From the IMG/VR virus record IMGVR_UViG_3300027835_000013, positions 1 through 35,163 of that record: 35,163 nt of DNA; one strand, 5' to 3'. The notes below the pieces were generated by a model. That model saw only the letters and a program-made list of their open reading frames with translations, had not been told where the DNA came from and ran no database searches. This document shows positions 1-17,683 of this stretch, piece after piece. Position 1 is the first letter of the stretch, and each line of letters opens with the position of its first letter. The stretch comes from a virus (taxonomy: Duplodnaviria > Caudoviricetes). The translations under genes were made by a program, and so were the position numbers.

Positions 1-1
1 T

Positions 2-676
2 CGCTTTGTCTCAGGTATTCTTGTATCGGATGCTCCTGCTCCCAACCTGTTCAGAGCCTCGGCAGATGAGCGTCTACACTATAAAGATTCTACTCCAGTT
101 GACCATACTCTCGCGTACACTTCAGACAACTTGGGTGTGTTTGCGGCAACCACTTCAGCCCAACTTGCAGGCGTAATATCCGACGAGACGGGTAGTGGTG
201 CGCTAGTGTTCGGAACTTCTCCTATGTTGATTACTCCAACATTGGGCGTTGCTACTGCCACAAGTGTCAACAAATTAACAATAACAACTCCTACGACGAG
301 CGCAACGCTGACGATTGCTGACGGGAAAACCCTGACGGTAAATCAGAATTTCCCTGTTGATGTTGTGACACTGACTGATGGTGCTACCCCTGCGCTGGAC
401 GCTTCTCTAGGCAACGTATTCCTATTGACGGCGGCAGGGGATAGGACAATCGCAGTTCCTACCAACCCGACGAGTGGACAGAAGATTGTGATTGCTCATA
501 AAGCCTCCGGTGCTAATAGAACCCTCTCACTGAATAGTGGCGCGGGTGGATTTCGATTTGGCACAGACGTTACTGCTCTAACTATGACGACCTCCGGTAA
601 GACTGACTACGTTGGTTGTATATATAATAATGCCGACAATAAGTGGGACGTAGTAGCTTACGTAAAGGGCTACTAA
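2..676 (+). CDS. Fibre-like virion protein, 5'-truncated
   Basis: The frame of ORF 131..676 is open back to base 2 (RFVSGILVSDAPAPNLFRASADERLHYKDSTPVDHTLAY). It has the fibre-type segment SDETGSGALVFGTSP..TPTLG and a C-terminal beta domain. It shares the LFR..ADERLH...LAY repeat with 16597..17661. Confidence 0.75.
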   Translation, partial: RFVSGILVSDAPAPNLFRASADERLHYKDSTPVDHTLAYTSDNLGVFAATTSAQLAGVISDETGSGALVFGTSPMLITPTLGVATATSVNKLTITTPTTSATLTIADGKTLTVNQNFPVDVVTLTDGATPALDASLGNVFLLTAAGDRTIAVPTNPTSGQKIVIAHKASGANRTLSLNSGAGGFRFGTDVTALTMTTSGKTDYVGCIYNNADNKWDVVAYVKGY

Positions 677-678
677 AG

Positions 679-1107
679 ATGCCGATTTCTGCCAGTCTGA
701 AAGCAACGGCTAATGTGAAGCTTGATGATTTGGTCACGCAACTATCAATGCTACAGGCGACATATAAAGCAAAGAACGGAAAATATTGGCAGGGTCTTCC
801 GTGTACCGCAACTATCCCCGCAGATGGGGTGGCTGTAACTGTCAATAAAACGGTTAGACCTAGTGACCAACCTGAAAGTTGGAATAATCTCTACAAAAAT
901 GACGCAACTCCACCCCAAGATGTAGGGATTGCCCTGGATGCGACCCTCCCTGTGCAACTACGAGTTGACACATATGCAAGACCGAACGAAGCAGGGTATG
1001 TTGTCGTTGGGGAAGTTATAGAGAGTACGAGGACATACCAACGATGTATTAACGTCGGGCCGGATACTTACCGTTCCTACGATTGGACTGACGTAACATC
1101 TACGTAA
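679..1107 (+). CDS. Hypothetical phage protein
   Basis: ATG at 679 lies 2 nt after the upstream stop and is more plausible than the 643 start. It fills the gap between co-oriented genes. Confidence 0.65.
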   Translation: MPISASLKATANVKLDDLVTQLSMLQATYKAKNGKYWQGLPCTATIPADGVAVTVNKTVRPSDQPESWNNLYKNDATPPQDVGIALDATLPVQLRVDTYARPNEAGYVVVGEVIESTRTYQRCINVGPDTYRSYDWTDVTST

Positions 1108-1128
1108 CACCAAGGGGATAATGTATAC

Positions 1129-1893
1129 ATGGCTAAAGTCTTTCAAGTAGATACTGGTGGGACACTGACTACTGGCCTTATCTCCTATTGGCCTCTAGAG
1201 GAACCAAGTGGTCTAAGACCTGACTTCTTCGGCTCGAACGATTTGACGGACAATAACACCGTCACAGGAGCCGTCGGAAAAGTCAATAATGCCGCGCAAT
1301 TTACCAGAGCAAATGGAGAGTGGCTATCCCATGCAGACAACGCCTCACTGAGCATAAATGGTAGTAGTTTCTCTCTTGCGGGTTGGGTCTATTTAGACTC
1401 GAAACCTGCTGTCGCAAATATGACCATTTGTGCAAGGACAGGGCCAAACGGAAATACGCTTGGAGTGGGCGATAGGGAGTTCGATTTGCTTTATGTGGAT
1501 ACAGTTGGGAAATTCTATTTTCAGATTTATGATGGTAGTGGTCTTGCTGATGCAGTTCAGGCAACAACTTTTGGTGCTCCATCAACCGGAACATGGTACT
1601 TCCTGGTAGCTATACATGATATTGTGGCCCAGAAAATTTATATTTCTGTGAACAATGGAACATTGGATAGTACGTCTACAACAAAAACCACTATTGATAG
1701 TACCGCCGATTTCAGCCTAGGAAACAGGAATCAATTTGGGATAGGTGATGCCTGGGACGGGCGGGAGGATGAATTTGGATTATGGAAGAAAGTTCTGAGT
1801 GCTCAGGAAATCACTGACCTATATAATGGTGGGGTGGGACAGACAATGGTACTTTCCAGTACCGTCCACCGGATGTTCGCAATATTTGATTAA
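1129..1893 (+). CDS. LamG/concanavalin-A-like domain virion protein
   Basis: LamG-type motifs LISYWPLEE, FSLAGWVY, GTWYFLVAIHD, WDGREDEFGLWKKVLSAQEITDLYN. Paralog of the N-terminus of 29362..31323. Confidence 0.85.
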   Translation: MAKVFQVDTGGTLTTGLISYWPLEEPSGLRPDFFGSNDLTDNNTVTGAVGKVNNAAQFTRANGEWLSHADNASLSINGSSFSLAGWVYLDSKPAVANMTICARTGPNGNTLGVGDREFDLLYVDTVGKFYFQIYDGSGLADAVQATTFGAPSTGTWYFLVAIHDIVAQKIYISVNNGTLDSTSTTKTTIDSTADFSLGNRNQFGIGDAWDGREDEFGLWKKVLSAQEITDLYNGGVGQTMVLSSTVHRMFAIFD

Positions 1894-1913
1894 GACTGAG
1901 AGACTACTAACAT

Positions 1914-2198
1914 ATGAAGAAACAGACAGTAAGGAAAACCAGTCAAAAGAATCGGGATGAGGATGTTGAGTCTCGCCTAACCGCGTTAGAAACGGATATG
2001 GGATATGTCCGAGAACAGGTGGAAAATCACATCCCAACGACCCTCGCTGAACATGGAGTAATCCTAGAGAGCATCCAGCGCAAACTAGGAGATAGGGATG
2101 CAGTTTCTAAGTTTATCTCAATGTGCTTCAAGTTTGTTGGTGCACTAGCGGGGGTTGTTTGGTCAATCAAGGCGATATGGCCTGGACACCATGACTAA
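1914..2198 (+). CDS. Small coiled-coil protein with C-terminal membrane helix (holin/XhlA-like)
   Basis: Basic N-terminus, heptad-like VESRLTALETDMGYVREQV, hydrophobic C-terminal FKFVGALAGVVWSI. Confidence 0.5.
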   Translation: MKKQTVRKTSQKNRDEDVESRLTALETDMGYVREQVENHIPTTLAEHGVILESIQRKLGDRDAVSKFISMCFKFVGALAGVVWSIKAIWPGHHD

Positions 2199-2487
2199 AG
2201 AATTACTGTTATCGTTTAGGGATACCCTCTCCTCCCTGAGCTTAATGTTAAAAGGGGCGCTCGGAGATGATGTACCCGCCCTAGACCCTACCGCAGATAC
2301 GTCTACGCGCCCCCCTAGTACGCAGGGAAGGATACCCAAGGGTCAGGATACCCCCCCACCCAAGAACAGGTCAAAGGACACCGTTTTTGGTCAAAAGCAT
2401 CTACCTCCAACTCGAAGGGTTCCGAGCACAGAGCCGGAAAACCAAGTACGACAGGATGCGGCCTACCACTTCGGCAGCGAAGTATAA
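2191..2487 (+). CDS. Hypothetical Pro/Thr-rich protein
   Basis: ATG at 2191 overlaps the end of the upstream gene (ATGACTAA) and the ORF fills the gap. No recognisable motif. Confidence 0.4.
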   Translation: MTKELLLSFRDTLSSLSLMLKGALGDDVPALDPTADTSTRPPSTQGRIPKGQDTPPPKNRSKDTVFGQKHLPPTRRVPSTEPENQVRQDAAYHFGSEV

Positions 2488-2503
2488 CATTAAGGAGAGT
2501 CCC

Positions 2504-2896
2504 ATGCGAACGACTCTCGCGCAACATCTGGTAACTCTCATTCAAAAATGGGCCGCGAATCTCGGAATATCCGACTACAAGTATGATTTCACCCTACATC
2601 CCGACAAGGTGATGGGGAGTGATTATGCGAGAGTCGATACGAACGACGTAACTAGAGATGTTATTATAGAATTCAATCGCCATAAACTGACTCAAGAACC
2701 CGACGAAATAGAATCCACCGTTGTCCATGAATTGCTCCATGTACGCGTCAACGAGTATGCTGAATTTATCTTGGACGTGATTCGTACCTACGTCAACGAC
2801 CCCAAAACCAAAAAACTCCTCCAGAAGCAGGCAGAAAAACTTGAACACAAAACTATCGTGTCTATTACGGATGCACTCCTAAAGGAGAAGAAGTAA
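2504..2896 (+). CDS. Small zincin-type (HEXXH) metallopeptidase-like protein
   Basis: TVVHELLH motif with a downstream LEH. SD TAAGGAG at 2491-2497 favours ATG 2504 over the longer ORF-track start. Confidence 0.7.
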   Translation: MRTTLAQHLVTLIQKWAANLGISDYKYDFTLHPDKVMGSDYARVDTNDVTRDVIIEFNRHKLTQEPDEIESTVVHELLHVRVNEYAEFILDVIRTYVNDPKTKKLLQKQAEKLEHKTIVSITDALLKEKK

Positions 2897-4773
2897 TGCC
2901 TTTATTTGGAATCGACCCTTTCAACATCAAACTGTTCAAGAAATTGGGGACAACTGTTCCCGAAGTCCTTATCAAGCGGGGCGCAGACCGTCCCGAACCT
3001 CAACCCAGAAAAGGACTATGGGGACTCTTTGGTGGGAACACTGTCAATAAGCGCCAGCAACGCGCATACACGGTGAATGGCGAAAGCCTTGCTCGTCTTG
3101 CCAAAACTGACCCCGTAACAGGTTCCATTATTCGGACTATCAAATCCTTCGTGAATCAGGCCAAGTGGGACATCGAGGTAGATACTGAAGTATTTGAGGC
3201 AGAACTGAACCGTTGGGAAGAGTATGCTCTCTCTCATTTGTCCCCTTATGCCATAGGGGATTTAGAAGACTTCAAGAGCGAGAAACTTGACCCCAAGATT
3301 ATGTCAGATGCGAATTCTCGGCTCAAGGCCATTATGAAAGAGCCAACTGACTTCTCGGAGAAGAATAAGGCAATTCAATGGTATTTCTCTTCCGTCGTCC
3401 GACAGGTAAAAACGGAGGCTGAAGCGCATAGATGGCCTGTGAAAGCTATCTTCGAGCGACCTTCCGAGCGTGGAACAGAGCCGAACCTCCGCACTCTTCA
3501 GGACATTCTACTGAATGATATGCTTGTCCACGATGCGGGCTGTCTCGTCAAGAACTGGAATCGGGGAGGCGAACTCGCAGAACTCTACCCCATCCCAGGA
3601 AAATCGGTCAGGCGATATTTGAATCCCGATAAGACAATCCCCGAACCACCTGAGCCTGCCTACGTCTGGGAAGATGGCGGAATCATCAGAGCCGAATATT
3701 CCAGAGATGAACTTGTGTATATTGTAGGGAATCCCCAGAATGACGGATATGGGTTTTCACCTGTCGAATCGGCCTGGTACATCATCACGGCATCCATCTA
3801 CGCCGACGAATATAACATTGATTATTTCAAGAATTCGAATGTTCCTCCAGGGGTCTTCGACCTCGGAAAAGATGTAACCGAAGAGCAACGAAATCTCTTC
3901 CAACAGATGTGGGATAATGAGGTTCGTGGTCGTGGAGGACTTCATCGGATGCTGTTCATCAGTGGGTCAGAAAATCCTAAGTTCATGCCGATGCGGGATA
4001 TGTCCAACCGCGATATGCAGATGATGGAATATATGAAGTGGACAGTTGCTATTAAGACATCATGTTTCGGACTCTCCCCGCAGGACATTGGGTTCATGCA
4101 GGAATCTGGTGGTCTTGGTGGGGGTGGGGTCGCAAAAACACAAAAAGGACTATCTCACTCTAGGGGTATCCAGACCCTTTTGAGTCTCCTCGAACAATAT
4201 TATAATAGTGGAATCGTCAAGCAGGAGTTTAAGTTTGACGACGTGAAGTTCGTTTGGAAAGATATAGATGTCATGGACGAGGAGAAGGAATCGACAATTG
4301 ATTCCCAGGATATCACAAATGGTGTTCTTGCTAGAAATGACCGCCGAAAGAAGCTCGGACTCAAGCCAATTGAAGGCGGTAATGTTGCTACTGTAACAAT
4401 GGCAGGACAACTTATTCCTGTGTCTGAACTTCAGCAGTATGAGGAAGGGCGCGAGGACATTGAAGAACAAGCCTCAAACGCCGCTGGAGGCGCACCCCAG
4501 GACTTATCACAAACTCCTCAACCTGGAAGTCAAACAGCCCAGGATGTACAAGACTCTAATGCTCCTCCGGCTCAATCGTCCACAGGACAACCGCCTGCCC
4601 AAAAGCCGTCTGAACCAGTACAAAAAACTCCAGACTCAAACATCAATCTCCTAATCAACCGAAGGAAACCTATCAAGAAACAGCATGAAGACCTTGATGC
4701 TGTTGTGAAGGAACTTCAAGCAAAAGGGATTGATGCGACCCTTCGTATAGGTTTCGACGATGCACAAAAATAG
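2896..4773 (+). CDS. Phage portal protein (HK97-like family)
   Basis: Portal motifs ELYPIPG, YGFSPVESA, YFKNSNVPPG, DMQMMEY, FGLSPQDIG, NDRRKKLGLKPIEGG. Located at the start of the head module. Confidence 0.92.
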   Translation: MPLFGIDPFNIKLFKKLGTTVPEVLIKRGADRPEPQPRKGLWGLFGGNTVNKRQQRAYTVNGESLARLAKTDPVTGSIIRTIKSFVNQAKWDIEVDTEVFEAELNRWEEYALSHLSPYAIGDLEDFKSEKLDPKIMSDANSRLKAIMKEPTDFSEKNKAIQWYFSSVVRQVKTEAEAHRWPVKAIFERPSERGTEPNLRTLQDILLNDMLVHDAGCLVKNWNRGGELAELYPIPGKSVRRYLNPDKTIPEPPEPAYVWEDGGIIRAEYSRDELVYIVGNPQNDGYGFSPVESAWYIITASIYADEYNIDYFKNSNVPPGVFDLGKDVTEEQRNLFQQMWDNEVRGRGGLHRMLFISGSENPKFMPMRDMSNRDMQMMEYMKWTVAIKTSCFGLSPQDIGFMQESGGLGGGGVAKTQKGLSHSRGIQTLLSLLEQYYNSGIVKQEFKFDDVKFVWKDIDVMDEEKESTIDSQDITNGVLARNDRRKKLGLKPIEGGNVATVTMAGQLIPVSELQQYEEGREDIEEQASNAAGGAPQDLSQTPQPGSQTAQDVQDSNAPPAQSSTGQPPAQKPSEPVQKTPDSNINLLINRRKPIKKQHEDLDAVVKELQAKGIDATLRIGFDDAQK

Positions 4774-5092
4774 GGAAGGAAAAGATTGGAAACCGGACTA
4801 TATTCAAACCATTTGTGATAGCTGTAGCGAGCTAGTCCAGGTGAAGGTCGATTTTATAGTCCGGCTCGATGACGGAATAAGCTACCAGGGGCTTATTTGT
4901 CCTCGTTGCGGAAATGTTCTCATTCTCGACAATCTCGCATTGCAATTTTTCATGCTTCCAAGAGCCAAGGGGAATAAGCCGACTCCCCACTCCAAGAAGA
5001 CCGCGAAGCGAAAATGGAAAATTATAAACAAGGGAAAGCTCCCGCCCGATGCAAGTACGTCTGGAAACACCACAGCCCCTAGAAAAACTTAG
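4760..5092 (+). CDS. Small zinc-ribbon protein
   Basis: CDSC...CPRCG cysteine pairs and a basic tail. Overlaps both neighbours. Confidence 0.55.
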   Translation: MHKNREGKDWKPDYIQTICDSCSELVQVKVDFIVRLDDGISYQGLICPRCGNVLILDNLALQFFMLPRAKGNKPTPHSKKTAKRKWKIINKGKLPPDASTSGNTTAPRKT

Positions 5093-8000
5093 AAAGATAT
5101 ACAAAGATAACGTCACGTTCATCTCTAGTGTCAACTCATATCCGTTGGTTGACACTTTAGAGTTTAAGGGGGACTATCTTTCCGCTATGAAAAAGCGGTC
5201 TGTACCTGTTAAGATTGGGAAGAAGGTAGATAAGGAGATTGCTAAGTACAGGAGCCGACTTACAAAGATATGGGATGCAAACCAAGCAGACTTCCTCAAA
5301 TCAATTACGCTGGATGGACTCAAAAAATCATTGAACAAAGCCGACGATACTTCACTTGAAGAAATAGCCCAAGAGCCGGATTCCAAAGAACGAACAAAGA
5401 AATATCGACAATACTTGCTTGACCACAAAGACGAAATTATCCGCTCAGGAACGAAAGAACTCAAGGAAGACCTCCGCAATGTGACTTCACTGTCGTTTAC
5501 GTCGGTCTACCTCCTTGGGAAAAATCGTGGACAGGCAATGACAAATCAAGAACTCTCCGATGACCTCACAAAAAAGGATAGAGATACCCTCGACGAAAAA
5601 GAACAGTGGAACGACGATTACTTAGACGGTCTTACGGATGACTTGTACAACAACTACGTCGATGCCTTGGGTGAGGATTATGATAGCGATGATGAATTGC
5701 TCGACACCTTAAAAGGAGTTGGAGATAGTGAGAGGAGTCGTCTACCACTTTTCGCCGCCGCTGTAGGGAGCGTTCTGCTCGCCGCAGGAATGAGAAGCGC
5801 GGCAGACGACGTAAGACAGGTAGACCCAGAGACCGGAGAATTAACAGACGAACCTGTGCTCGACCCCGATACCGACCTGCCAATTGGAGACGTGATTACG
5901 GGAGGTGTATGGCATACCTCTCAAGATGATAGTGTTTGTGATGGGTGTGACGACGAAGACGGACAATGGATGACTTGGGATGAATTCGAGCAGGAAGCAG
6001 GGACGAATGATTGTCTGACCCGATGCCGTTGCATTGAACTCTTTGAGCCTTCGGATGAGCCACAGGATGAGGAAAAATCTGTGAAGTCCGGCTCCCTCAC
6101 TAAACAAGATGAACACAAGAAAAATACCATAGCTGTAGACCTTGACGGAACACTCCTCGAAACTGGAACTGCTGATGAGCCATTAGGTAAACCAAAACCA
6201 GGGGCTAAAGAAGTTCTACAACGATTGAAGGATGAAGGCTACACAATCGTTATCTATACTTCTAAGGCCGGATACACACGAATTTCGAACCACCTGAAGG
6301 CTTACGGGATACCATTTGACCACATCAACATCAACCCAGATGAACCTTACATCGTTGGCTCAAATCTCGGAAAGCCGTCTGCGGAAGCCTACATTGATAA
6401 CCGCGCTTTGGAGTTCAAAGGCGATTGGGAAGTGGTGTACCAAGAACTTAAAAGGCGTGGTGGAAACCCCCTGGCGAAGATTGCCCCGACAACAATTAGT
6501 CGAGATATTGAGCGAGTTAAGGAGATACATGGTAGCAAACTCGATGACAAGTTTCTCCAAGTCCAGGCAAAACGAGCCGATGAACTTAGAGACCTACACT
6601 CAGACATTACCCAACGTATCGTAACCGACTTACGAACACTCCTTCCGAACGCCGATATCTCATCTCGTACTAAGACCCGTTACAGTATGGTTGAGAAGCT
6701 TGGGCGCAAGGACAAATACAAATCCGTCGATGACATCAAAGACATTACCGGAATTCGTATTATCGTTAATCATCTTGATGACATTACGATTGATGGTGGG
6801 GTGATTGACGCTATTAGGGGCAAATATAATGTGGTTGAACAACAGAATTACATCGACCATCCACAGCCAAACGGCTACCGTAGTTACCACTTGACCATAA
6901 AAGATGCCGAGACTGGACGCCCTGTAGAAATACAGGTGCGTACCAAGAACCAGGATGCTTGGGCCTTGTGGTCATATGACTTGACCTACAAACCTAAATC
7001 TAAGACTTTCCAAGAACTAAGTCTTGCCGACAAAGAAACTGTTAGGCAATATCAATCTGATGTGTCGGATTATCTGTACACGCTCGACCAGGATAGGACA
7101 GCTACAAAGCCGGAATGTCCAGACCTCATTACACAGGTCGTAAAATGCTTTGGGGAAGTGACAAAAGGTGGGGCTGGCTCTGGTTCTTGGGAAGGGCAAG
7201 GACAACCGCGCTTCCAGTGGACACAGGCTCAGAAGCCCGAACAGGCAGGAATCCGACAACTAGAGGAACCTGGTCGTCAACTTGCCTCCCGCGCCCAGGA
7301 AGCTGAGAAAAAGATTACACCTTTAATTGATAAGCTTGCGCTCACAATGGATGGAACTATTCGGGGCAGGGAATACCGACTAAAGACAGAGGAATCTCTC
7401 TTGAGAAAAATGAATGAGGCGTATCTAGCAAACCCCGCTCTCGAACCCGACAAAGTAGCCAGTGACATCAAAGACTCAGTACGGTACACGATGGAATTTC
7501 CAGATAACACCTACACCATGAAGGTGAGTGAATCGCTTGACGCACTTCAAAAAGAAGGCCACACTCCGGTAAAGGCGAAGAACTATTGGGAGCAAGACGA
7601 CCCCTACCAAGGTATCAACGTCACCATGAAATCCCCCGAAGGACATCTCTGGGAACTCCAGTTCCACACTCCAGAAAGCTATGACCTCAAGCAAAACAAA
7701 ACCCATCCAGTCTATGAACAATTCCGAGTAAGTCCTAGTCCCGTCGAACGGAAATCCCTCTATGATACGATGGTACGAATGGCATCTACAGTAGCCGCCC
7801 CCGCAGGCGTCATGGCACTTGGGGAACTGGCCCGACAGATGATGAAAGCTGTGGCCGAGGGCGCACGATATTTTGCTATCCGACCAGATTTTAATGATGT
7901 GACCTCTGGATTGATTCGCCTTCGTGATGAAAAATCTGGAATGGTCATTGAATACCTTAATCGCAAGGGAGTATGGGTTCCTGACCCTGAACTTCTTTCC

Positions 8001-9485
8001 TTTCTCTTGGGGTCAGAGGGCGTCGATGAGATAGATGAAAAACGTGCGGGGGAAATCATGCACGATTGGTTCTTTGCTGGCAAGAAAGTGGAGAAAGGTG
8101 GAGCAGGCTCAGGACACTTTGGACACGCAGGGATTCCAGGGCAGAGGGGCGGCTCTCTCCCCGCAGGTGAGGGCGGCGCAGAGGGCGCAGGACGTGGCGG
8201 CTATGAAACCACTATCACAGAAACAGGTGGACAACGATGGCTACCTGAAGAACGGTATGGTAAAGAGTTTAAGGATGCTGTAGAGAAAGAGATTGCGAAC
8301 GCGGCTGAACACCTCAAGATGGCTCCTGCTATTGATACAGCAACAGTTAGAAATATGCTAGGAACATCGGCAACTGCTTTTTTAGCCAAAGAGGTTGTAG
8401 CTATACAAAATACTAATAACGGGGATAAGGATGAACTTAAGCGGCTAGAAGATAAAAAAGTTGCGGGGCAAACAACTGTTGGATGGGATAATAAACCTAT
8501 AGATGAGGCAATTTCTTTTGCTCGAAAGCAAGTACAGGAAAGTGGGCTTCAGGTAGCTGTTACGAGAAGTTCAGCAGTAACAAAAGGTATTGAAGAACAG
8601 GTCGGTAAGATTGCTGAACAATTAGGAAAACAGCCAAGTCTAGCTGACCAGAATCGGCTGTTTGAGAAAATCAAAGAGGATGTTTATAAGAGTAGCGGAA
8701 GTAAAATTCTTCAGAGTAATGCTACTCAGGCGGTTGTTACCAATGTTCTTGCATCGGCCATAGGGGAACGCCAACGGGCCTTAGCCAATGAGAATGACCA
8801 ATCTATCGAGGGGCATTTATATGAGCATCGCCAAGAGATTCAAGCTCAGTGGGACAAGCAGACCGATGAAGACATGAAACGCGCTCGAAACGCGGTAGAA
8901 GGTGGAGCGGCATCAGCAACGGTGCAGAGCCGCCAAAACTATCAGAATGGGCGAGATTGGGTAAAGGGGAATGTTTCCCCCTGGCTCCTCCAACAAATTC
9001 CCCCTGTTGAATGGCAAGCCAAGCGCGGGAATCGGTCTTTTTATCGTCCTCAAGATGGCGCAATTAAGTTAGCTACAGATGACCGACCAGGCACAATTCC
9101 CCATGAGTTTATGCACCACCTAGAGCGGAATATCCCTCAAATTTCTAACTTCTTCTCAGAGTATTATAAGGCGCGAACATTGGGGGAAACTCCACTAAAA
9201 CTAAGTCGAGTCAACCCAGGACGAAGTTATACCTCCGACGAATACACACGGCTGGATAAGTTTACAACTGCCTATATGGGGCATACGTTTATGGTTCAGG
9301 GGTATGGTGGTGATAGAAATGAACGCCGACAAGGAGGCGAAATCTTTTCAACAGCCGTAGGAATGTTGGCTAACCGCCGAGATGCCGCAGAACTCTACCG
9401 ACGCGACCCAGAACTATTTGGGATTACTTCCGCAATTCTTAAAGGTTGGGTTCCAAGTCCGAAACCCGTAGGAGGATTGGCATGA
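5049..9485 (+). CDS. MuF-family minor head protein fused to HAD phosphatase, two RelA/SpoT-superfamily nucleotidyltransferase domains and a C-terminal HEXXH peptidase (polyvalent protein)
   Basis: Position after the portal. MuF-like WHT..D..VCDGC...CLTRCRC (5910-6032). HAD IAVDLDGTL...IYTS...KP...YIDNRA (about 6129-6460). Synthetase motifs RTK, DITGIRII, GYRSYH, EIQVRT (6663-6945). Second domain YRLKT.ESL.RK, DSVRYT, KNYW, YQGIN, ELQFHT (7371-7670). HEFMH at 9102. Confidence 0.88.
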   Translation: MQVRLETPQPLEKLRKIYKDNVTFISSVNSYPLVDTLEFKGDYLSAMKKRSVPVKIGKKVDKEIAKYRSRLTKIWDANQADFLKSITLDGLKKSLNKADDTSLEEIAQEPDSKERTKKYRQYLLDHKDEIIRSGTKELKEDLRNVTSLSFTSVYLLGKNRGQAMTNQELSDDLTKKDRDTLDEKEQWNDDYLDGLTDDLYNNYVDALGEDYDSDDELLDTLKGVGDSERSRLPLFAAAVGSVLLAAGMRSAADDVRQVDPETGELTDEPVLDPDTDLPIGDVITGGVWHTSQDDSVCDGCDDEDGQWMTWDEFEQEAGTNDCLTRCRCIELFEPSDEPQDEEKSVKSGSLTKQDEHKKNTIAVDLDGTLLETGTADEPLGKPKPGAKEVLQRLKDEGYTIVIYTSKAGYTRISNHLKAYGIPFDHININPDEPYIVGSNLGKPSAEAYIDNRALEFKGDWEVVYQELKRRGGNPLAKIAPTTISRDIERVKEIHGSKLDDKFLQVQAKRADELRDLHSDITQRIVTDLRTLLPNADISSRTKTRYSMVEKLGRKDKYKSVDDIKDITGIRIIVNHLDDITIDGGVIDAIRGKYNVVEQQNYIDHPQPNGYRSYHLTIKDAETGRPVEIQVRTKNQDAWALWSYDLTYKPKSKTFQELSLADKETVRQYQSDVSDYLYTLDQDRTATKPECPDLITQVVKCFGEVTKGGAGSGSWEGQGQPRFQWTQAQKPEQAGIRQLEEPGRQLASRAQEAEKKITPLIDKLALTMDGTIRGREYRLKTEESLLRKMNEAYLANPALEPDKVASDIKDSVRYTMEFPDNTYTMKVSESLDALQKEGHTPVKAKNYWEQDDPYQGINVTMKSPEGHLWELQFHTPESYDLKQNKTHPVYEQFRVSPSPVERKSLYDTMVRMASTVAAPAGVMALGELARQMMKAVAEGARYFAIRPDFNDVTSGLIRLRDEKSGMVIEYLNRKGVWVPDPELLSFLLGSEGVDEIDEKRAGEIMHDWFFAGKKVEKGGAGSGHFGHAGIPGQRGGSLPAGEGGAEGAGRGGYETTITETGGQRWLPEERYGKEFKDAVEKEIANAAEHLKMAPAIDTATVRNMLGTSATAFLAKEVVAIQNTNNGDKDELKRLEDKKVAGQTTVGWDNKPIDEAISFARKQVQESGLQVAVTRSSAVTKGIEEQVGKIAEQLGKQPSLADQNRLFEKIKEDVYKSSGSKILQSNATQAVVTNVLASAIGERQRALANENDQSIEGHLYEHRQEIQAQWDKQTDEDMKRARNAVEGGAASATVQSRQNYQNGRDWVKGNVSPWLLQQIPPVEWQAKRGNRSFYRPQDGAIKLATDDRPGTIPHEFMHHLERNIPQISNFFSEYYKARTLGETPLKLSRVNPGRSYTSDEYTRLDKFTTAYMGHTFMVQGYGGDRNERRQGGEIFSTAVGMLANRRDAAELYRRDPELFGITSAILKGWVPSPKPVGGLA
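7158..7214 (+). repeat. Inter-domain peptide type A, copy 1 (VTKGGAGSGSWEGQGQPRF)
   Basis: Near-identical peptide at 9761-9817. Confidence 0.9.
8088..8162 (+). repeat. Inter-domain peptide type B, copy 1 (VEKGGAGSGHFGHAGIPGQRGGS)
   Basis: Similar peptide at 10574-10645. Confidence 0.9.
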
Positions 9486-11158
9486 AACTAACCTTGCTCC
9501 ATGACCAAGCCCCCATGCTAGAAGTATCGTATGACGCCTACAATGACCCTGTAACCCTTGAGAAAATAGACCCAAAGTTCAGAGGACTATATGATAGTTG
9601 GATACAGGACGCGGATTATATTGTAGCCCATGATGAGCAAGATGGCGGGTACGAAGGACGGACGAATGGTTTAGACGACATACGCGCCTTCGAGCAACGG
9701 ATTATTATGCTTATTCATCAGCTAGGTGGGGGCTGGCGATATGAAGTCAGCGAAGAGGGGCTTTACAAAGGTGGTGCGGGGAGTGGTAGTTGGGAAGGCC
9801 CAGGAGACCCCAGGTTTGCCTATGAAGGTTCTCAGGCAACAGCAACCGCCCCCGCGAGTGTGGTCAATACCAAAGCCTATGATGCCGCCCAGAAATATCT
9901 AGCAAGCAGGAATATGACCCCAATTGGCGACCAGGAAAAAGTGAAGGTAGACCCTGAGCGCGGAGCTAGAATTGCAGAAGCCTACGAGCAGATGAAGTCT
10001 GACCCCACAGACCCCACCGTAGTAGAAGCCTATACACAGTTTGGAAAAGAAGTCCAGGCGCAGTATGATATTCTTCCAGTCAAGGTTGAGTGGACAGCTA
10101 ATGACCCGTACAAAACCTCAAAAGAAATGGTTGAGGATGTAGTCACCAACAACAACCTTAAAGTGTACACAGGCGGGGAACCACATCCATTACTAGGAGA
10201 GAAGGACAAAGATGGTATCTCCCTCAATGATAAATTTCGAGCCGTCCATGATTACTTCGGACACTCTATGCGCGGGAACCAGTTTGGGCCAAGCGGAGAA
10301 GAAAATGCGTGGATAGACCATAGCCATATGTTCTCACCCCTAGCACAGAAGGCGATGACAACCGAAACGCGGGGGCAGAACTCTTGGTTCAACTTTTCCA
10401 AGACGAACGAAGGAAAGGAACCGAAAGACCGCAAGTTTGCCGAGCAAAAGGTCGGTATCCTGCCGGACGAGTTTCTACCATCAGCACAGCAAAAGCAGGC
10501 AAGCGACGACAAGACCGTTCAGGAAGACGAAAATCCCCGCTACTGTCCACTCCGAGCCTATCTTGCTAAAGATGTTCAAAAAGGTGGGAGTGGCTCAGGC
10601 AATTTTGGACATGGGGGTAGACCAGGGGAAGTGGGAGGTTCGGGAGAAGGGGGTAAGCCTGATATTAGCCAGGACAAGCCTGAAACCCTTATCCCACAGC
10701 ACCTTACAACATTCGCAGGCATTAAGGAGCATCTAGGAGCAGGAACCAAAATAATTATGTCCGCAGAGAATCCAAGGGGGCGTCGTCTAAGTCCTGATGA
10801 GAACGCCCGCAGGAGCGTTGGATTGAAGCGAGTCCTCCAAAATTACTCCAAAGATGTAGTGACACAACATTGGCACGAAGGAAATAATCCTATCGAAAGA
10901 AGTTATGTGGCAACTGTTCGACCAGAACATATTAACTACATACAAAATCTAGCCTTTGACCCCAAAGAGCTTAACCAGAAATCTATTATAGTTATCCGAA
11001 ATGGAATTGCTGAATCACGATACTATGATAACCGACCTGTAAAGTATGCGCTAGTTAATGAGCTTGAAGAAACCAAAACATCAACTGGCTACTACTCGAA
11101 ACTCGGAGATATAAAATACCTGTTCGACTTCAAATACAAGAGAGTGCCAAATGGCTAA
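9482..11158 (+). CDS. Second polyvalent cargo protein: unknown N-domain, HDxxGH domain, C-terminal SAM-lyase/DUF3293-like domain
   Basis: ATGA overlap with the MuF stop and SD GGAGG at 9471-9475. Motifs NDKFRAVHDYFGH, GEENAW, TETRGQNSW. C-terminal IIMSAENP..LS..EN..R...L, ERSY, NQKSII. Carries two KGG peptides. Confidence 0.78.
   Translation: MKLTLLHDQAPMLEVSYDAYNDPVTLEKIDPKFRGLYDSWIQDADYIVAHDEQDGGYEGRTNGLDDIRAFEQRIIMLIHQLGGGWRYEVSEEGLYKGGAGSGSWEGPGDPRFAYEGSQATATAPASVVNTKAYDAAQKYLASRNMTPIGDQEKVKVDPERGARIAEAYEQMKSDPTDPTVVEAYTQFGKEVQAQYDILPVKVEWTANDPYKTSKEMVEDVVTNNNLKVYTGGEPHPLLGEKDKDGISLNDKFRAVHDYFGHSMRGNQFGPSGEENAWIDHSHMFSPLAQKAMTTETRGQNSWFNFSKTNEGKEPKDRKFAEQKVGILPDEFLPSAQQKQASDDKTVQEDENPRYCPLRAYLAKDVQKGGSGSGNFGHGGRPGEVGGSGEGGKPDISQDKPETLIPQHLTTFAGIKEHLGAGTKIIMSAENPRGRRLSPDENARRSVGLKRVLQNYSKDVVTQHWHEGNNPIERSYVATVRPEHINYIQNLAFDPKELNQKSIIVIRNGIAESRYYDNRPVKYALVNELEETKTSTGYYSKLGDIKYLFDFKYKRVPNG
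9761..9817 (+). repeat. Inter-domain peptide type A, copy 2 (LYKGGAGSGSWEGPGDPRF)
   Basis: Matches 7158-7214 at protein level with different codons. Confidence 0.9.
10574..10645 (+). repeat. Inter-domain peptide type B, copy 2 (VQKGGSGSGNFGHGGRPGEVGGS)
   Basis: Matches 8088-8162 at protein level. Confidence 0.9.
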
Positions 11159-11384
11159 GAGAAAAGACCCAGAAGCTACAAAGATAGAACGAACAGGCAA
11201 GAACTCCTTTAATGTTAAAATGGAGGACGGCTCCTCTTTCCAGGCAAAGACCGACCCTAGAAAGTTCAAGAGTTGGGGGAACCTAGCTACCAAGGCTGAA
11301 AAGGGCGCAACCGGAGATACGGTATTCATTATAACTACCTGCCCCAAATGTGGGTCAAAGTGGCACATAGACTGTTCAAACTAA
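11151..11384 (+). CDS. Small basic protein with C-terminal CPKCG motif
   Basis: Overlaps the upstream stop by 8 nt. Contains CPKCG..WH..C. Confidence 0.6.
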   Translation: MAKRKDPEATKIERTGKNSFNVKMEDGSSFQAKTDPRKFKSWGNLATKAEKGATGDTVFIITTCPKCGSKWHIDCSN

Positions 11385-12355: not shown

Positions 12356-14179
12356 ATGTCTAATTTTACTCTGTATGCCCCCATTGATAAAGTTGATAAA
12401 GAAAATAGGACTGTTGCTGGATGGGCAACGGATGAAACCCTCGACAAACAGGGAGAAATTGTTTCTTACCTTGCATCCAAAGAAGCTTTTGCTGATTGGC
12501 CTGGAAATATTAGGGAGCAACACGACAGCAAAGCGGTTGGTAAAGCTGTTGAAATTATCCCTAATGACGAGAAAAAAGCTATCTACGTCAAAGCCTATAT
12601 CAGTAAGGGAAGTCCTGAGACATGGGAGAAAATCCTCGACGGAACCCTACGAGGGTATTCAATTGGAGGAAATACTCTCGATAAGAGTGTACAAATCGTA
12701 AAAGATGTCCAAACGGGTCAATCTCGACAGGTCACTAAGATAAATAAATACAGACTAAATGAGCTTAGTCTAGTGGACAATCCCGCGAATCCGTCAAGCA
12801 TATTCTCTCTCGTAAAACGGGCGAATGACGGATACCTATATCAGACTGAACTCGTCGAGGACATTCAAAAAGTCATCATCACTGATTCCGATTTCATTCT
12901 TGAGAACGAAGTCAAGGAATATCGTGAGAAGGCCGATGGCCTTGCTCGAAAGATACGTACCTCCGACGAAATGGAAAAGATGGGGGACGATGAATTTGGC
13001 ATTATCCGTAAATATGTTTCACCACAGGGTAATAAGGTAGTCAAAGAACGTCATTACTTCATGCCCGACAAGGTTCATGCAAATGCTGTTCTTCGGAAAC
13101 TAGATGAGCAATCTATAACTCCCGACGAGCGCAATGTGCTTCACAAGAAAGCGAAGGAAATTCTAGGTTCCTCACACTCAGAGGACGAGTGTAAATTTTG
13201 TAAGAGTGAGTCAACCAATACAGGGGGTGATTCTAGCGATATGGACAAAGCAGTAGTTACCGAACTAACCGGAAAGATTGATGCACTTTGCACAACGATT
13301 GACAAAATGCTCAAGGCGTATGAGGGTGCGTATAAGCCTGTTGCAGGCGCGAAGGACACACCGGAGCAAGAAGGGGAGAACCCGACAGATGCTTCGATAA
13401 GTCCGTCAAGCCCTGACAAAACTGGCGACCCAGATAACAAAGATGTCAAGACCCAGGATGAACAACCTGTTCCCGCAAAGAAAAATGTTGGAGCATCTAA
13501 TACCAAGAAGGCCCAGAATCCAGCAACTTCCAATGCCGAGACACAGGAGAGTCCTGCGGTTCCAGCAGGGACAGGAAAGGCAGAGTCCGTGAGCGCCAAA
13601 GATGGCGTTCCAGCCGCGTCAAGTCCCGAAAAAGCAGGCGACCCCGCAAAGAACGAGGTCAAGACGCAAGATGAACAGCCAGTTCCAGCCAAGAAAGCAA
13701 TGGCATCTAAACCCGCTGAAGGTTCAGCAGAGGAAGAAGCCTCTGAGACCCCAGAGGAAGAAGCCGCAGAACAAGCAGGAACTAAGAAAGCTGTGAAAAA
13801 GGCGAAGCCAGCCGAAGGTTCTCAAGAGGAAGAGGATAAAGAAACCGAAGCAGAGGAAATGGCTGAAGAGGGTGCAAAGAAATCGGCTGACCCATCAGAC
13901 CTTAAGAAATTGGTTGCAACGGTTCAGACTCTTCAGAAAGAAGTTGAGACACTGAAAAAGCAACCCCTTCCCCGCAAGTACGCCGCAACAAGGATTGAGA
14001 AGTCCAATGAAGAACCAAGTGGAGAAGATACTCTTCAGAAAGAGTACAACGAGGTTCTTGAGTGGATTAAAGCTCACCCAGGCAAAGACCTTCCAAGGGA
14101 AATTGCCATAAAGAAAGATGCCGTACTGAACAAGATGTTATCCAACAAATTTGGAGACAGCACGAAAAAGGTAATGTAA
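12356..14179 (+). CDS. Prohead protease (HK97-type, S78-like) fused to a scaffold-like region
   Basis: RTVAGWAT, DKQGE, NIREQH, GYSIGG, LNELSLVDNPANP. Long acidic low-complexity C-terminal half with a coiled coil. An alternative TTG start at 12344 is possible. Confidence 0.9.
   Translation: MSNFTLYAPIDKVDKENRTVAGWATDETLDKQGEIVSYLASKEAFADWPGNIREQHDSKAVGKAVEIIPNDEKKAIYVKAYISKGSPETWEKILDGTLRGYSIGGNTLDKSVQIVKDVQTGQSRQVTKINKYRLNELSLVDNPANPSSIFSLVKRANDGYLYQTELVEDIQKVIITDSDFILENEVKEYREKADGLARKIRTSDEMEKMGDDEFGIIRKYVSPQGNKVVKERHYFMPDKVHANAVLRKLDEQSITPDERNVLHKKAKEILGSSHSEDECKFCKSESTNTGGDSSDMDKAVVTELTGKIDALCTTIDKMLKAYEGAYKPVAGAKDTPEQEGENPTDASISPSSPDKTGDPDNKDVKTQDEQPVPAKKNVGASNTKKAQNPATSNAETQESPAVPAGTGKAESVSAKDGVPAASSPEKAGDPAKNEVKTQDEQPVPAKKAMASKPAEGSAEEEASETPEEEAAEQAGTKKAVKKAKPAEGSQEEEDKETEAEEMAEEGAKKSADPSDLKKLVATVQTLQKEVETLKKQPLPRKYAATRIEKSNEEPSGEDTLQKEYNEVLEWIKAHPGKDLPREIAIKKDAVLNKMLSNKFGDSTKKVM
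13406..13696 (+). repeat. Duplicated 26-aa unit in the scaffold (SSP.K.GDP....VKTQDEQPVPAKK) at 13406-13483 and 13619-13696
   Basis: Seen directly in the translation. A second pair KPAEGS.EEE..ET..EE.AE follows. Confidence 0.9.
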
Positions 14180-14473: not shown

Positions 14474-15478
14474 ATGAGCAACGCAAACCTCGTAGACGAG
14501 GCGTTGGCAACGATTCGTAAATCTATCGAATCGACTGATGTTAGCGGATTACTGCTTGTCCGTGAGGACTTGCAGGCCGAGCTTGCAATTGAAGCTCCTA
14601 CCGCTACGCCAGTTCGCAATCGTCTTAATCGTATTCAAGGAAATGGTCGTGCTCACTCTTGGTACAAACTTGTACCCACCACAGTCGATGAAGGACTGTT
14701 CCTCGGAACGGCTCCCTCAAAGATGTTCTTTGAGAAGGGTGGACTTCCTGACGCAACAACCCCTTCCTACAAGAACGTGAGCGCACCTTATACAGCGATT
14801 GGTGACTTGGTGACCGTATCGTTCCAAGACCAGATGAGCGGCGCAACATACACCGACATCAAAAAGCACCAAATCAAGCTGAAGATGGTCAACGTGGCGC
14901 GTGGTGAAGAGTGGGCCATAATCAATGGCGATTCCACAGTAGACCCCAAGCAGTTTGATGGTCTACTCAAGCAAATCACCACAAACACCACAGACCTAGC
15001 AGGTGTGAACCTCTCTCTATCCGATATTACCAATATGGAGCGAAAAATCGTCACTCGCGGTGGGAAACCACAGGCGGTGATTGCTGGCTACCGTGAGGCT
15101 CAGAGGATTTCCGAACTCGTCCTCGGTAGTTTCTACCGTTTAACTCAAGCAGGAGCAGGCTCTATGTCCAATGTTCCGGCGGGTGTTGCTGTAACCGCAT
15201 GGGACAATGTGTTTGGTCGTGTGGACATTATCGGGTCAGAGTTCCTTCGTCCAGAAGGTATTGATGAACTAGCAAAGCTGATTGTGCTGGATGATAAAAC
15301 GGTGCTCGAAGATGGAAATGCCGTCCAGATGGTTGACCTTATGCCATTGTCGGCAATCGACCTCGCACTCCTTGGTTCGGCTTACCGAACTCTGGTCTGC
15401 GAATTTACGGTTTTGATGCTTGCCTGTGAAGCCTTCCAGGGAGTCATCAAGAACATCGGTACAACGGAGCCAGCATAA
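14474..15478 (+). CDS. Major capsid protein (HK97 fold)
   Basis: Position, 334-aa size, A-rich leader with AAGGAG, motifs TPVRNRL, EEWAIINGDS....FDGL, downstream hairpin. Confidence 0.9.
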   Translation: MSNANLVDEALATIRKSIESTDVSGLLLVREDLQAELAIEAPTATPVRNRLNRIQGNGRAHSWYKLVPTTVDEGLFLGTAPSKMFFEKGGLPDATTPSYKNVSAPYTAIGDLVTVSFQDQMSGATYTDIKKHQIKLKMVNVARGEEWAIINGDSTVDPKQFDGLLKQITTNTTDLAGVNLSLSDITNMERKIVTRGGKPQAVIAGYREAQRISELVLGSFYRLTQAGAGSMSNVPAGVAVTAWDNVFGRVDIIGSEFLRPEGIDELAKLIVLDDKTVLEDGNAVQMVDLMPLSAIDLALLGSAYRTLVCEFTVLMLACEAFQGVIKNIGTTEPA

Positions 15479-15694: not shown

Positions 15695-16594
15695 ATGTCT
15701 ACTACTGACCCCACTCGGTACAAGGGTAAGAAAGTACCCGCATTTCCATACGACCAAAGCAATAAAAGTTCCTCTGTTCTAGTCCTTCCTATTATTGTTG
15801 CAGGCGAGATTGTCGGATACCTCCCTGCCAAAGCTATAGACAACGGAGATGGCACAGCAACATTGAAAGTTGATACAGAATTAACACTAGCCGCCGATAA
15901 TGTAACGGTTGGCAATATCAAAGTTGCCTCTACTGACCAATCTACAGCCAACGAAAAATTTATCAAGGTAAAGCCCGATGGAACGGTTTTTGTGACCCCC
16001 GACCTTCTGGCTGTTTTTGATACCAACGTAAAACAATGGGGCGGGACTATTCAGTCCGGTGCAGACCTAACTCCACTCTTTCAGCACCTTAATACAGACC
16101 TTTCCACCAGAGCATCCGAAGCAACTCTAGCAACTCGCGCTACTGAAGCTACACTCGCCTTAGTTAAATCTGACCTCGATGAAATTGCTTTAGATACAGA
16201 TAATCTTAATACCCCATTGAGTACAAGAGCCAGTGAGCTAACCCTATCAGGAATCAAGACCCAGACCGACAAGTTAACATTTGATGCAACTAGTTCGCTC
16301 CTTGTGCAAGAAGAACAAAAGAGCACAGGGACAGCCGTAGCGGTTCCTGTGACTAACACTATTGGGCCAGCGACCTTAATTCTCGCGGCCAATGCTAACA
16401 GACAGGAATACACGGTGGTTCACGAAGACCCAAGTGCTGTAGTCTACCTTGGTTTTGCTAACACAGTTACGACCTTAACGGGAATTCCGATTGTTGGAAA
16501 CCAGATGTACGGCTCAAACAAGTATACAGGAGCAATCTACGCTGTGGCGTCAGTTGCAGGCCCAATCAGCGTAAGAGTTGCAGAGGTCGCATAA
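15695..16594 (+). CDS. Fibre/decoration protein, paralog of 18123..19544
   Basis: Shared N-domain (G.IVG..PA.A.D.GDGT..LKVD.EL), LSTRASEATL repeats, C-terminal beta domain LILAANANR. Confidence 0.72.
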   Translation: MSTTDPTRYKGKKVPAFPYDQSNKSSSVLVLPIIVAGEIVGYLPAKAIDNGDGTATLKVDTELTLAADNVTVGNIKVASTDQSTANEKFIKVKPDGTVFVTPDLLAVFDTNVKQWGGTIQSGADLTPLFQHLNTDLSTRASEATLATRATEATLALVKSDLDEIALDTDNLNTPLSTRASELTLSGIKTQTDKLTFDATSSLLVQEEQKSTGTAVAVPVTNTIGPATLILAANANRQEYTVVHEDPSAVVYLGFANTVTTLTGIPIVGNQMYGSNKYTGAIYAVASVAGPISVRVAEVA

Positions 16595-16596
16595 AA

Positions 16597-17661: not shown

Positions 17662-17683
17662 AATTGCTATCGAGAATACACAA

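What the first reader, a model, noticed from the sequence alone, without database searches (positions are those of the whole stretch)
5049..11158. Candidate head-packaged, protease-matured effector polyprotein system punctuated by a K-GGxGSG signal
Seen: two translationally coupled proteins between portal and prohead protease are strings of unrelated enzyme-like domains. Four junctions carry hydrophobic-x-K-GG[AS]GSG (VTK 7158, VEK 8088, LYK 9761, VQK 10574). They come in two flavours, A (SWEG.G.PRF) and B (FGH.G.PG..GGS), in the same A-then-B order in both genes. Codons differ between copies (e.g. Ser TCT versus AGT), so the conservation is at peptide level. Other junctions have hydrophobic-x-K (SVKS, LAKI, MMKA), as does the capsid N-terminus (IRKS). 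Known: HK97-type prohead protease cuts after Lys, and MuF proteins are minor head proteins that can carry toxin domains. Inference: the head protease cuts both proteins into individual effectors, each starting with a Gly-rich tag that may serve packaging or ejection. The second gene lacks MuF and may be loaded by the tag alone.
Basis: partly seen in the sequence, partly recalled or inferred. Interest (0 to 1): 0.88.

Follow-up and report, generated by a model that had tools for sequence, protein, structure and literature searches.

The report
Protease-cut tagged cargo in phage heads
Two genes in the head-assembly block of this uncultured phage string counter-defence enzymes together behind short peptide tags, and because the residue just before the tag changes from phage to phage in step with each phage's head protease, that protease likely cuts the chains into single tagged enzymes that are probably carried in the virus head and injected with the DNA.

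Summary
Observation confirmed: four [VL]-x-K|GG[AS]GSG junctions at the stated places, conserved as peptide. The tag is a widespread portable module: 434 copies in 176 viral contig groups. The residue before it is fixed per phage (928 of 979 within-group pairs; shuffled 0.29) but is K, D, R, L/A, E or H/N/Q in different phages. It tracks the prohead-protease family and the end of the capsid leader. Homology crosses the tag in 9 of 105 sites against 381 of 539 masked controls. Orthologues carry the same cargo at the same K behind unrelated tags (HPRD-type, HDQ-type). Cargo here: HAD, RelA-type synthetase, Apk2-like (p)ppApp synthetase with a probable Tis1-like immunity module fused in cis, two zincin-like domains, and a T3-fold SAM lyase. 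Not upheld: a fixed A-then-B order, a tag on every module, and hydrophobic-x-K as evidence by itself. Cleavage, packaging and tag function are unmeasured. Polyvalent/MuF cargo and T4 internal-protein processing are known; a retained, interchangeable tag behind a protease-matched site was not found in nine literature searches. This scan noted the same kind of system earlier on other DNA (e1-10031997, e1-5848933).

The parts
2896..4773 (+). portal protein
   Evidence: PF04860 E 1e-28
5049..9485 (+). gene 1, 1478-aa MuF polyprotein
   Evidence: orthologues L307, P0077, P0183, P0184 share its N-terminus
5049..6053 (+). N-terminal region with MuF-like domain (Cys-rich core at residues 288-328)
   Evidence: PF04233 E 0.0055, below cut-off; 34% identical to the L307 orthologue
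6078..6104 (+). untagged junction SVK..LTK, probable cut site(s) after MuF
   Evidence: aligns with MMK or LTK that precede tags in L307 and P0077, and with VTK..VAK in P0183/P0184
6105..6464 (+). HAD-family phosphatase-like module (DLDGT), untagged
   Evidence: phrog_1238 E 1e-23; Pfam HAD hits below cut-off
6471..6479 (+). untagged junction LAK, probable cut site
   Evidence: LAK-FAK in P0183; in P0184 FAK at this junction is followed by an HPRD tag
6480..7157 (+). RelA/SpoT small-alarmone-synthetase module, untagged
   Evidence: PF04607 E 1e-25; closest solved structures are small alarmone synthetases, 6EWZ E 4e-16
7158..7214 (+). VTK + tag A (GGAGSGSWEGQGQPRF)
   Evidence: P0183 has MMK plus an HPRD tag at the same junction
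7275..7814 (+). Apk2-like (p)ppApp-synthetase module
   Evidence: E 3.5e-29 to the MuF toxin domain of Streptococcus phage K13; 8VX3 E 1e-21
7839..7847 (+). untagged junction MMK between synthetase and immunity-like module
   Evidence: sequence; synthetase homologues end before it and stand-alone homologues of the next module begin after it
7848..8075 (+). probable Tis1/IapK-like immunity module fused in cis, untagged
   Evidence: stand-alone 77-83 aa homologues; top VIA hit 6OX6_B Tis1, Z 4.9, tied with unrelated chains; complex score 0.59 vs best control 0.06, weak
8088..8156 (+). VEK + tag B (GGAGSGHFGHAGIPGQRGGS)
8166..9482 (+). helical region plus zincin-like metallopeptidase (HEFMH at 9102)
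   Evidence: phrog_33618 E 3e-16; atlas nearest cluster 'DdrB domain protein' 0.94, a lead only
9482..11158 (+). gene 2, 558-aa polyprotein without MuF, ATGA-coupled to gene 1
   Evidence: full-length orthologue P0065 52% identical
9761..9817 (+). LYK + tag A (GGAGSGSWEGPGDPRF)
9839..10501 (+). HDxxxH zincin-like domain of polyvalent proteins, function unknown
   Evidence: phrog_3170 E 4e-22; tblastn hits in large polyvalent proteins of cultured phages
10574..10642 (+). VQK + tag B (GGSGSGNFGHGGRPGEVGGS)
10700..11155 (+). SAM-lyase-fold module (T3 gp0.3-like)
   Evidence: model pLDDT 92.5; Foldseek top six rows are SAM lyases, 8BB1 E 2.8e-4, TM 0.61; VIA Z 11.6 to 7OCK; homologues pass the PF23780 cut-off
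12359..14179 (+). prohead protease-scaffold fusion, enriched in [VILM]-x-K
   Evidence: phrog_9427 E 5e-41; 27 sites vs 13.4 shuffled
14474..15478 (+). major capsid protein with IRK at the end of a 16-residue leader
   Evidence: PF17236 E 1e-17; Lys conserved in 5 of 5 aligned relatives

Best explanation
Genes 5049-9485 and 9482-11158 encode chains of unrelated enzyme modules joined at [VILM]-x-Lys sites, which the phage's own prohead protease likely cuts inside the maturing head, so that four modules would start with a retained Gly-rich tag that probably docks them in the head for co-ejection with the DNA. Steps: (1) shown: the genes lie between portal and protease, the modules are separate domains, the tags mark their boundaries, and the residue before the tag matches the phage's protease family and capsid leader. 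(2) Inferred: gene 1 is taken into the prohead through MuF and gene 2 through its tags or its N-terminal domain. (3) Inferred, strong: cleavage after Lys during maturation. (4) Inferred, weaker: the tag is a docking handle for an internal head component (portal, MuF or DNA) that holds the cut pieces and sends them out with the genome. (5) Inferred from homology: the delivered enzymes act before phage genes are expressed: a SAM lyase against SAM-dependent restriction (type I R-M, BREX), nucleotide pyrophosphokinases that disturb host nucleotide signalling, and peptidase-like domains. The Apk2-like synthetase is probably kept off in the producing cell by its fused, untagged immunity module and armed only after the cut at MMK.
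For: P1 fixed per phage: 928 of 979 within-group pairs, shuffled mean 0.29, maximum 0.38; P2-P5 only 0.13-0.33; 69 of 80 multi-copy groups have a single P1 residue. P1 by protease cluster: phrog_80 type 61 of 61 tags K (16 groups); phrog_530 type 40 of 40 D (16 groups); phrog_760 type 43 tags L/A/H/N/Q/F, none K or D (12 groups). Within one capsid family the leader ends in R-x-[LA] in 5 of 5 phages with L/A tags and in V-x-N in 3 of 3 with H/N/Q tags (site picked by eye). In this phage's protease family [VILM]-x-K is enriched in 5 of 5 protease-scaffolds and the capsid-leader Lys is conserved in 5 of 5; all four tag sites fit it. Boundary test 9 of 105 vs 381 of 539. Unrelated tags replace GGxGSG at the same junction before the same cargo (P0064, P0183, L307) and mostly follow the same P1 class within a contig (exceptions L132, L169). 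60 of 212 complete tagged ORFs are fused to portal, MuF or protease; 64 of 70 groups with at least 10 kb hold a head or terminase gene. 99 of 279 first tags lie within 45 residues of the upstream stop and still keep the phage's P1. T4 gp21 cuts retained, ejected internal proteins (PMC7411985, passages).
Against: No cleavage, packaging or ejection has been measured, and no cultured phage carrying the tag was found (none in the records or regions checked). P1 and protease family share descent, so part of the correlation is phylogenetic; groups are not independent and large groups dominate the pair count. HAD, the first RelA domain and the immunity-like module have no tag, also not in P0183, so a tag is not needed on every module. 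[VILM]-x-K is loose: 32 such sites in gene 1 vs 23.2 shuffled, most inside domains. Nothing here separates loading from ejection from simple protease access. The immunity assignment is weak (no Pfam, phmmer or hhalign match to IapK/Tis1; no Foldseek hit). The window's SAM-lyase module scores below the Pfam cut-off (E 0.022) and has Lys where relatives have Asp/Glu after the conserved Gln, so its activity is not assured.
Confidence: 0.68

Rival explanations
1. The protease cuts at these sites, but the tag is only a flexible spacer or exosite that makes the site accessible; targeting comes from MuF/portal fusion or from the short leader upstream of the cut, as with the T4 capsid-targeting sequence.
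For: Gly-rich tags are good linkers; many free-standing tagged genes have 8-15 residue basic/hydrophobic leaders ending in P1, like a removable propeptide; untagged modules exist in gene 1.
Against: 14 of 24 tag columns are invariant in 30 copies, including Phe, His and Pro, far more than a spacer needs; the same tag serves proteases of different families and P1; the replacing HPRD/HDQ tags are not Gly-rich at the cut; the upstream leaders share no sequence beyond P1-P3.
Confidence: 0.17
2. The modules are cut and packaged, or simply expressed late, but serve the lysogen or the producing cell (toxin-antitoxin type defence, competition) rather than early takeover of the next host.
For: Apk2 MuF toxins sit in temperate phages with immunity genes and their purpose is open (PMC12226406, part 1 of 4); the in-cis immunity-like module resembles a toxin-antitoxin pair.
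Against: A SAM lyase and the ADP-ribosyltransferase-rich cargo of other loci fit early counter-defence; sites matched to a head-confined protease make sense only for head-loaded proteins.
Confidence: 0.08
3. The chains are not prohead-protease substrates: they stay whole or are processed by their own zincin domains, as proposed for polyvalent proteins, and P1 merely follows phage ancestry.
For: Iyer et al. 2017 propose MPTase autoproteolysis and cite unprocessed N4 vRNAP (PMC5512222 sections 8 and 33); both genes hold zincin-like domains; kin share labels.
Against: P1 matches the capsid-leader residue even inside one capsid family; 21 of 46 shared cargo clusters span two or more P1 classes, so cargo moves and P1 is reset; most tagged modules scanned have no peptidase hit.
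Confidence: 0.06
4. The motif is a DNA-level repeat used to shuffle cassettes, and the peptide is a by-product.
For: Modules are clearly shuffled; Gly third positions are slightly more alike within contigs (0.395) than between (0.278).
Against: Synonymous sites are mostly different; 33 of 71 multi-copy groups mix TCN and AGY at the invariant Ser; always in frame and on the coding strand in the window.
Confidence: 0.01

Closest known systems
Phage-type polyvalent proteins (Iyer, Burroughs, Anand, de Souza, Aravind 2017, PMC5512222)
   Same: Multi-domain strings of unrelated effectors (RelA/SpoT, zincin MPTase, ART) in portal-terminase phages, fused to MuF or portal, predicted to be packaged and injected.
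   Different: That work proposes MPTase autoproteolysis for the release of domains; the passages and two sections read mention no junction tag and no protease-matched P1. Its FTP supplements were not seen.
T4 internal proteins IPI-III and Alt with capsid-targeting sequence, cut by gp21; SPN3US gp245 (PMC7411985)
   Same: The prohead protease cuts ejection proteins at the motif it uses on the capsid protein; the cargo stays in the head and enters the host.
   Different: The T4 signal lies upstream of the cut and is removed from single proteins. Here the conserved element lies downstream, is kept on the cargo, repeats inside polyproteins, and is shared across unrelated P1 specificities.
MuF polymorphic toxins, Apk2 with IapK/Aph1 (PMC12226406; PMC3482391)
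   Same: MuF domain plus homologous (p)ppApp-synthetase domain in the head module, followed by a small immunity-like unit.
   Different: Known Apk2 has one C-terminal toxin and a separate iapK gene; here the synthetase is internal, one of five cargo modules, and the immunity-like unit is fused in cis behind a predicted cut site; no Aph1 hydrolase was seen.
T3 gp0.3 / Svi3-3 SAM lyase (PF23780; PDB 8BB1, 7OCK, 6ZM9; PMC7877911)
   Same: Fold over 124 aligned residues (Z 11.6) and an invariant Glu in the family alignment.
   Different: T3 gp0.3 is a stand-alone early gene (recalled); here the domain is a tagged module of a late head-block polyprotein; activity untested.

Membership tests
Phage-type polyvalent proteins | two or more biochemically unrelated domains in one chain | tested here: met
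Phage-type polyvalent proteins | encoded with virion head genes of a portal phage | tested here: met
   between portal and protease
Phage-type polyvalent proteins | zincin-like MPTase or other listed polyvalent domain | tested here: met
   HEFMH zincin-like and RelA/SpoT domains
Phage-type polyvalent proteins | packaged in the virion and injected | not testable with these tools
   needs virion proteomics
MuF polymorphic toxin / Apk2 | N-terminal MuF domain | tested here: inconclusive
   PF04233 E 0.0055, 17.9 bits against cut-off 29.6; position and Cys pattern fit
MuF polymorphic toxin / Apk2 | Apk2-type synthetase domain with Syn motifs | tested here: met
   E 3.5e-29 and 2.1e-27 to the K13 and Aaphi23 domains; RLK..S..RK, D.VRY, YQG.N, ELQFHT kept
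MuF polymorphic toxin / Apk2 | single C-terminal toxin followed by a separate immunity gene | tested here: not met
   synthetase is internal and the immunity-like unit is in the same ORF
Tis1/IapK immunity proteins | fold and binding to the synthetase | tested here: inconclusive
   VIA Z 4.9, rmsd 4.4, 67 aligned, tied with unrelated chains; complex 0.59 vs control 0.06, weak; no sequence match
T4-type capsid-targeting sequence system | cut site shared with the capsid protein and scaffold | tested here: met
   by sequence only:
T4-type capsid-targeting sequence system | targeting peptide upstream of the cut and removed | tested here: not met
   the conserved element is downstream of P1; upstream columns are not conserved
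SAM lyase (PF23780) | T3 SAM-lyase fold | tested here: met
SAM lyase (PF23780) | catalytic Glu and SAM cleavage | tested here: inconclusive
   invariant Glu in ERSY (residue 472) in 7 of 7 aligned; equivalence to Svi3-3 Glu69 not checked residue by residue; activity not testable
Known Pfam/PHROG/NCBIfam/PDB entry for the tag | profile match of the tag | tested here: inconclusive
   0 of 30 members match NCBIfam or PHROGs and no PDB hit; 24-residue queries have little power; Pfam was scanned only with the whole proteins

The most novel reading that the evidence does not exclude
Tailed phages with unrelated head proteases share a small set of interchangeable peptide address tags (GGxGSG-, HPRD- and HDQ-type) that are unmasked as new N-termini by capsid maturation and suffice to load any appended protein into the head and eject it with the DNA: a portable virion-delivery code, here also used to arm a (p)ppApp toxin by cutting off its fused antidote and to pre-load an anti-restriction SAM lyase.
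Probability: 0.4. Interest if true: 0.9.

Novelty: new variant of a known kind. Interest (0 to 1): 0.74.

Why it matters
How phage ejection proteins are chosen, held and released is understood for few phages (T4 CTS). A retained tag behind a protease-matched site makes this testable with a 20-residue peptide, explains how polyvalent proteins without their own peptidase could be split, gives a read-out of prohead-protease specificity for uncultured phages, and flags hundreds of unannotated modules (most of the 140 scanned had no Pfam hit) as candidate injected counter-defence enzymes. If the tag suffices for delivery it is also a tool for loading proteins into phage heads.

Tried and rejected
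tblastn of the bare tag against cultured phages: no match, probably lost to the low-complexity filter. Tag profile against PDB, NCBIfam, PHROGs and five chosen records: nothing. The search for related loci with the Apk2 domain: no locus. Sequence tests of the immunity-like module against K13/Aaphi23 small downstream genes, Pfam and PDB: negative; Foldseek no hit at E 0.001. Alignment A3 misplaced the small proteins and was not used for folding. Sequence search of the SAM-lyase module against PDB: no true hit. First boundary control was unmasked and too favourable; replaced by the masked control. Position-of-tag counts ('inside' rows) are blurred by profiles that include C-terminal extensions and were not used. 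Scaffold motif enrichment in other protease clusters was modest or absent (2.0-fold for x-x-D-small in the D cluster, 1.5-fold for [KR]-x-[AL]-small in the L cluster, 0.92 for [VILM]-x-K in cluster 15). Cultured phages with the nearest protease (Jay2Jay, Gilson, NiceHouse) have no tagged cargo in the 14-kb regions read. Rejected: fixed A-then-B grammar; SVK as a hydrophobic-x-K site; DNA-repeat explanation; reading the last module as DUF3293 of unknown function (it has the SAM-lyase fold). Literature searches without a description of the tag.


Full report
Observation. The window is a 35-kb virus record with portal (2896-4773), two long ORFs (5049-9485, 1478 aa; 9482-11158, 558 aa, ATGA-coupled), protease-scaffold (12359-14179) and capsid (14474-15478) on the + strand. 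A six-frame scan finds exactly four K-GG[AS]GSG, at the reported places, with tails A (SWEGxGxPRF) and B ([HN]FGHxGxPGxxGGS) and divergent codons.

The tag is a widespread module. In the 274 viral loci there are 434 distinct copies in 176 contig groups, up to 20 per group. In 30 aligned copies 14 of 24 columns are invariant. Conservation is at peptide level: Gly third positions agree 0.395 within and 0.278 between contigs, and 33 of 71 multi-copy groups mix TCN and AGY at the invariant Ser. The seed patterns constrained P1 of one copy per locus, so P1 frequencies are not population estimates; the other copies were unconstrained.

It marks domain boundaries. With the tag masked, BLAST alignments to other groups (at most 60% identity) cross it in 9 of 105 informative internal sites (200 tested), against 381 of 539 (990 tested) random positions masked the same way. 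Alignment starts pile up 20-40 residues after the tag start and ends just before it. 437 modules fall into 265 clusters, 207 of them singletons; 21 of 46 clusters shared between groups span two or more P1 classes. Of 140 modules scanned, most had no Pfam hit; hits were mainly ADP-ribosyltransferases, zincin-like, zeta-toxin, GNAT, topoisomerase IB and RNase-toxin domains.

The residue before the tag follows the head protease. P1 is the same in 928 of 979 within-group pairs (shuffled mean 0.29, maximum 0.38), P2-P5 only in 13-33%; 69 of 80 multi-copy groups have one residue, 7 of the other 11 mix L/A(/F), 3 mix H/N/Q and 1 is D/Q. Groups with the phrog_80-type protease have K in 61 of 61 tags, phrog_530-type D in 40 of 40, and the phrog_760-type L/A/H/N/Q/F in 43 of 43. 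Capsid leaders end accordingly: K-[AS] in the K clusters, D in most of the D cluster, and inside one capsid family R-x-[LA] in 5 of 5 L/A phages and V-x-N in 3 of 3 H/N/Q phages (sites read by eye). For this phage's own family, [VILM]-x-K is enriched in 5 of 5 protease-scaffolds (27 vs 13.4, 30 vs 15.1, 15 vs 6.9, 19 vs 7.0, 11 vs 6.5) and the capsid-leader Lys is conserved in the window, L307 and three cultured actinophages. Non-head proteins of the window show no enrichment (82 vs 81.2). Against: relatives share ancestry, and scaffold enrichment in other protease clusters is modest or absent. That HK97 protease cuts after a Lys is recalled, not checked (one search found no paper).

Tags are interchangeable. 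L307 (protease 69% identical) has the orthologous MuF gene but uses K-xW[DI]ExxHPRxxxGxF six times in the locus and no GGxGSG. P0183 has the same MuF-HAD-RelA start and an HPRD tag exactly where gene 1 has VTK-tag A; P0184 has an HPRD tag after the HAD domain where gene 1 has untagged LAK. P0064 carries both cargo domains of gene 2 behind K-HxxGxHDQSxH tags, P0077 has LTK plus an HDQ tag after MuF, and P0065 repeats the A-B arrangement. So the untagged SVK/LTK and LAK junctions are position-conserved Lys sites. A-B order is not fixed: of the 5 ORFs with both tails (the window's) are A-B and 3 (two near-identical) are B-A; further tails (GSGRHP, GSGCxGxNCGRP) exist.

Location. 64 of 70 groups with at least 10 kb of DNA hold a terminase, portal, MuF, protease or capsid gene (profiles were built from the loci themselves). 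Of 212 complete tagged ORFs, 60 are fused to portal, MuF or protease and 152 to none of these. 99 of 279 first tags lie within 45 residues of the upstream stop, often about ten residues from a Met, and still keep the phage's P1. I infer that the cut matters even with nothing upstream to separate, which points to unmasking of the tag or removal of a leader; tags on portal and protease fusions, which need no loading signal, point to a role after the cut.

Cargo of this phage. Gene 1: weak MuF, HAD phosphatase-like, RelA-type small alarmone synthetase, an Apk2-like synthetase (E 3.5e-29 to the phage K13 MuF toxin domain; Apk2 makes (p)ppApp and is blocked by IapK, PMC12226406), a 77-residue module, and a zincin. 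The small module has stand-alone homologues. Its model (pLDDT 82) ranks Tis1, the immunity protein of the (p)ppApp synthetase Tas1, first among 48,161 chains, but at Z 4.9, tied with unrelated chains. The predicted complex with the synthetase scored 0.59 against a best control of 0.06, partner pLDDT at least 72, 78% agreement: weak support, a level reached by 18 of 157 solved and 2 of 215 mismatched pairs, and possibly from likeness to Tas1-Tis1. Sequence tests were negative. I put in-cis immunity at about 65%. Gene 2: an HDxxxH domain also found in large polyvalent proteins and a module with the T3 SAM-lyase fold (Foldseek top six rows; VIA Z 11.6, rmsd 2.7, 124 aligned), whose homologues pass the PF23780 cut-off while its own score does not.

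Mechanism. Shown: anatomy, boundaries, P1 co-variation, tag swaps, homologies. Inferred: loading into the prohead, cleavage after [VILM]-x-K by the 12359 protease (about 80%), tag as retained docking/ejection handle (about 50%), early action of the cargo against host defence. Rivals are a pure spacer with targeting by MuF or leader, action in the lysogen, zincin self-processing, and a DNA repeat.

Comparison and novelty. The proteins meet the testable criteria of phage-type polyvalent proteins (PMC5512222: passages and sections 8 and 33 read; FTP supplements not seen and could list these tags). They work like T4 internal proteins processed by gp21 (PMC7411985, passages) but fail the CTS definition, since the conserved element is downstream and kept. 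They extend MuF/Apk2 toxins (PMC12226406, part 1 of 4; PMC3482391 and PMC9503650, passages). SAM-lyase catalysis is from PMC7877911 (passages); the BREX link is from a search listing. Nine searches found no description of the tag or of protease-matched junctions; the library lacks most subscription journals. Earlier unchecked notes of this scan describe the same kind of system on other genomes; my P1 test preceded that look-up, and they are not independent support.

Verdict: a real, well-patterned feature; a new variant of known head-packaged effector systems; interest 0.74.

Noticed in passing
window 2387-2896: SprT-like HELLH zincin gene directly before the portal, with a homologue at the same place in L307 (4146-4559).
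   Followed up: partly
window 12359-14179: The scaffold part holds an internal duplication (VKTQDEQPVPAKK twice) and acidic EEE..AEE repeats flanked by KKA motifs.
   Followed up: no
window 15695-20659: Several paralogous neck/fibre-like genes with repeated LSTRASEATL-type heptads; similar genes in L307.
   Followed up: no
window 24509-25108: ORF that looks by eye like a GIY-YIG/NUMOD3 homing endonuclease inserted in the tail block.
   Followed up: no
window 1-2900: No terminase gene upstream of the portal in this record; the gene 1 protein is also on a 98,557-base contig, so the window is a genome fragment.
   Followed up: no
window 11151-11384: 77-aa ORF overlapping the end of gene 2, with a CxxC..C zinc-ribbon-like end; a similar gene follows the MuF gene in L307.
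   Followed up: partly
L307:91-909, 2600-3664, 6374-7486: HPRD-tagged genes lie upstream of the portal as well as between portal and MuF; two carry a VxGLGLVREDLQ-like stretch resembling the capsid N-terminal arm (LLLVREDLQ), also seen in P0067-P0076.
   Followed up: no
P0001, P0039, P0041: XkdF-type protease proteins fused to an Apk2-like synthetase behind K-HxxxRHDQSSH tags.
   Followed up: partly
L293:526-569: R-type tag in a contig binned to a Methanomassiliicoccales archaeon; may extend the system to archaeal viruses, binning unverified.
   Followed up: no
P0070-P0076: A Cys-bearing tail variant GGPGSGCxGxNCGRPS and a GGPGSGRHPE variant of the tag.
   Followed up: no
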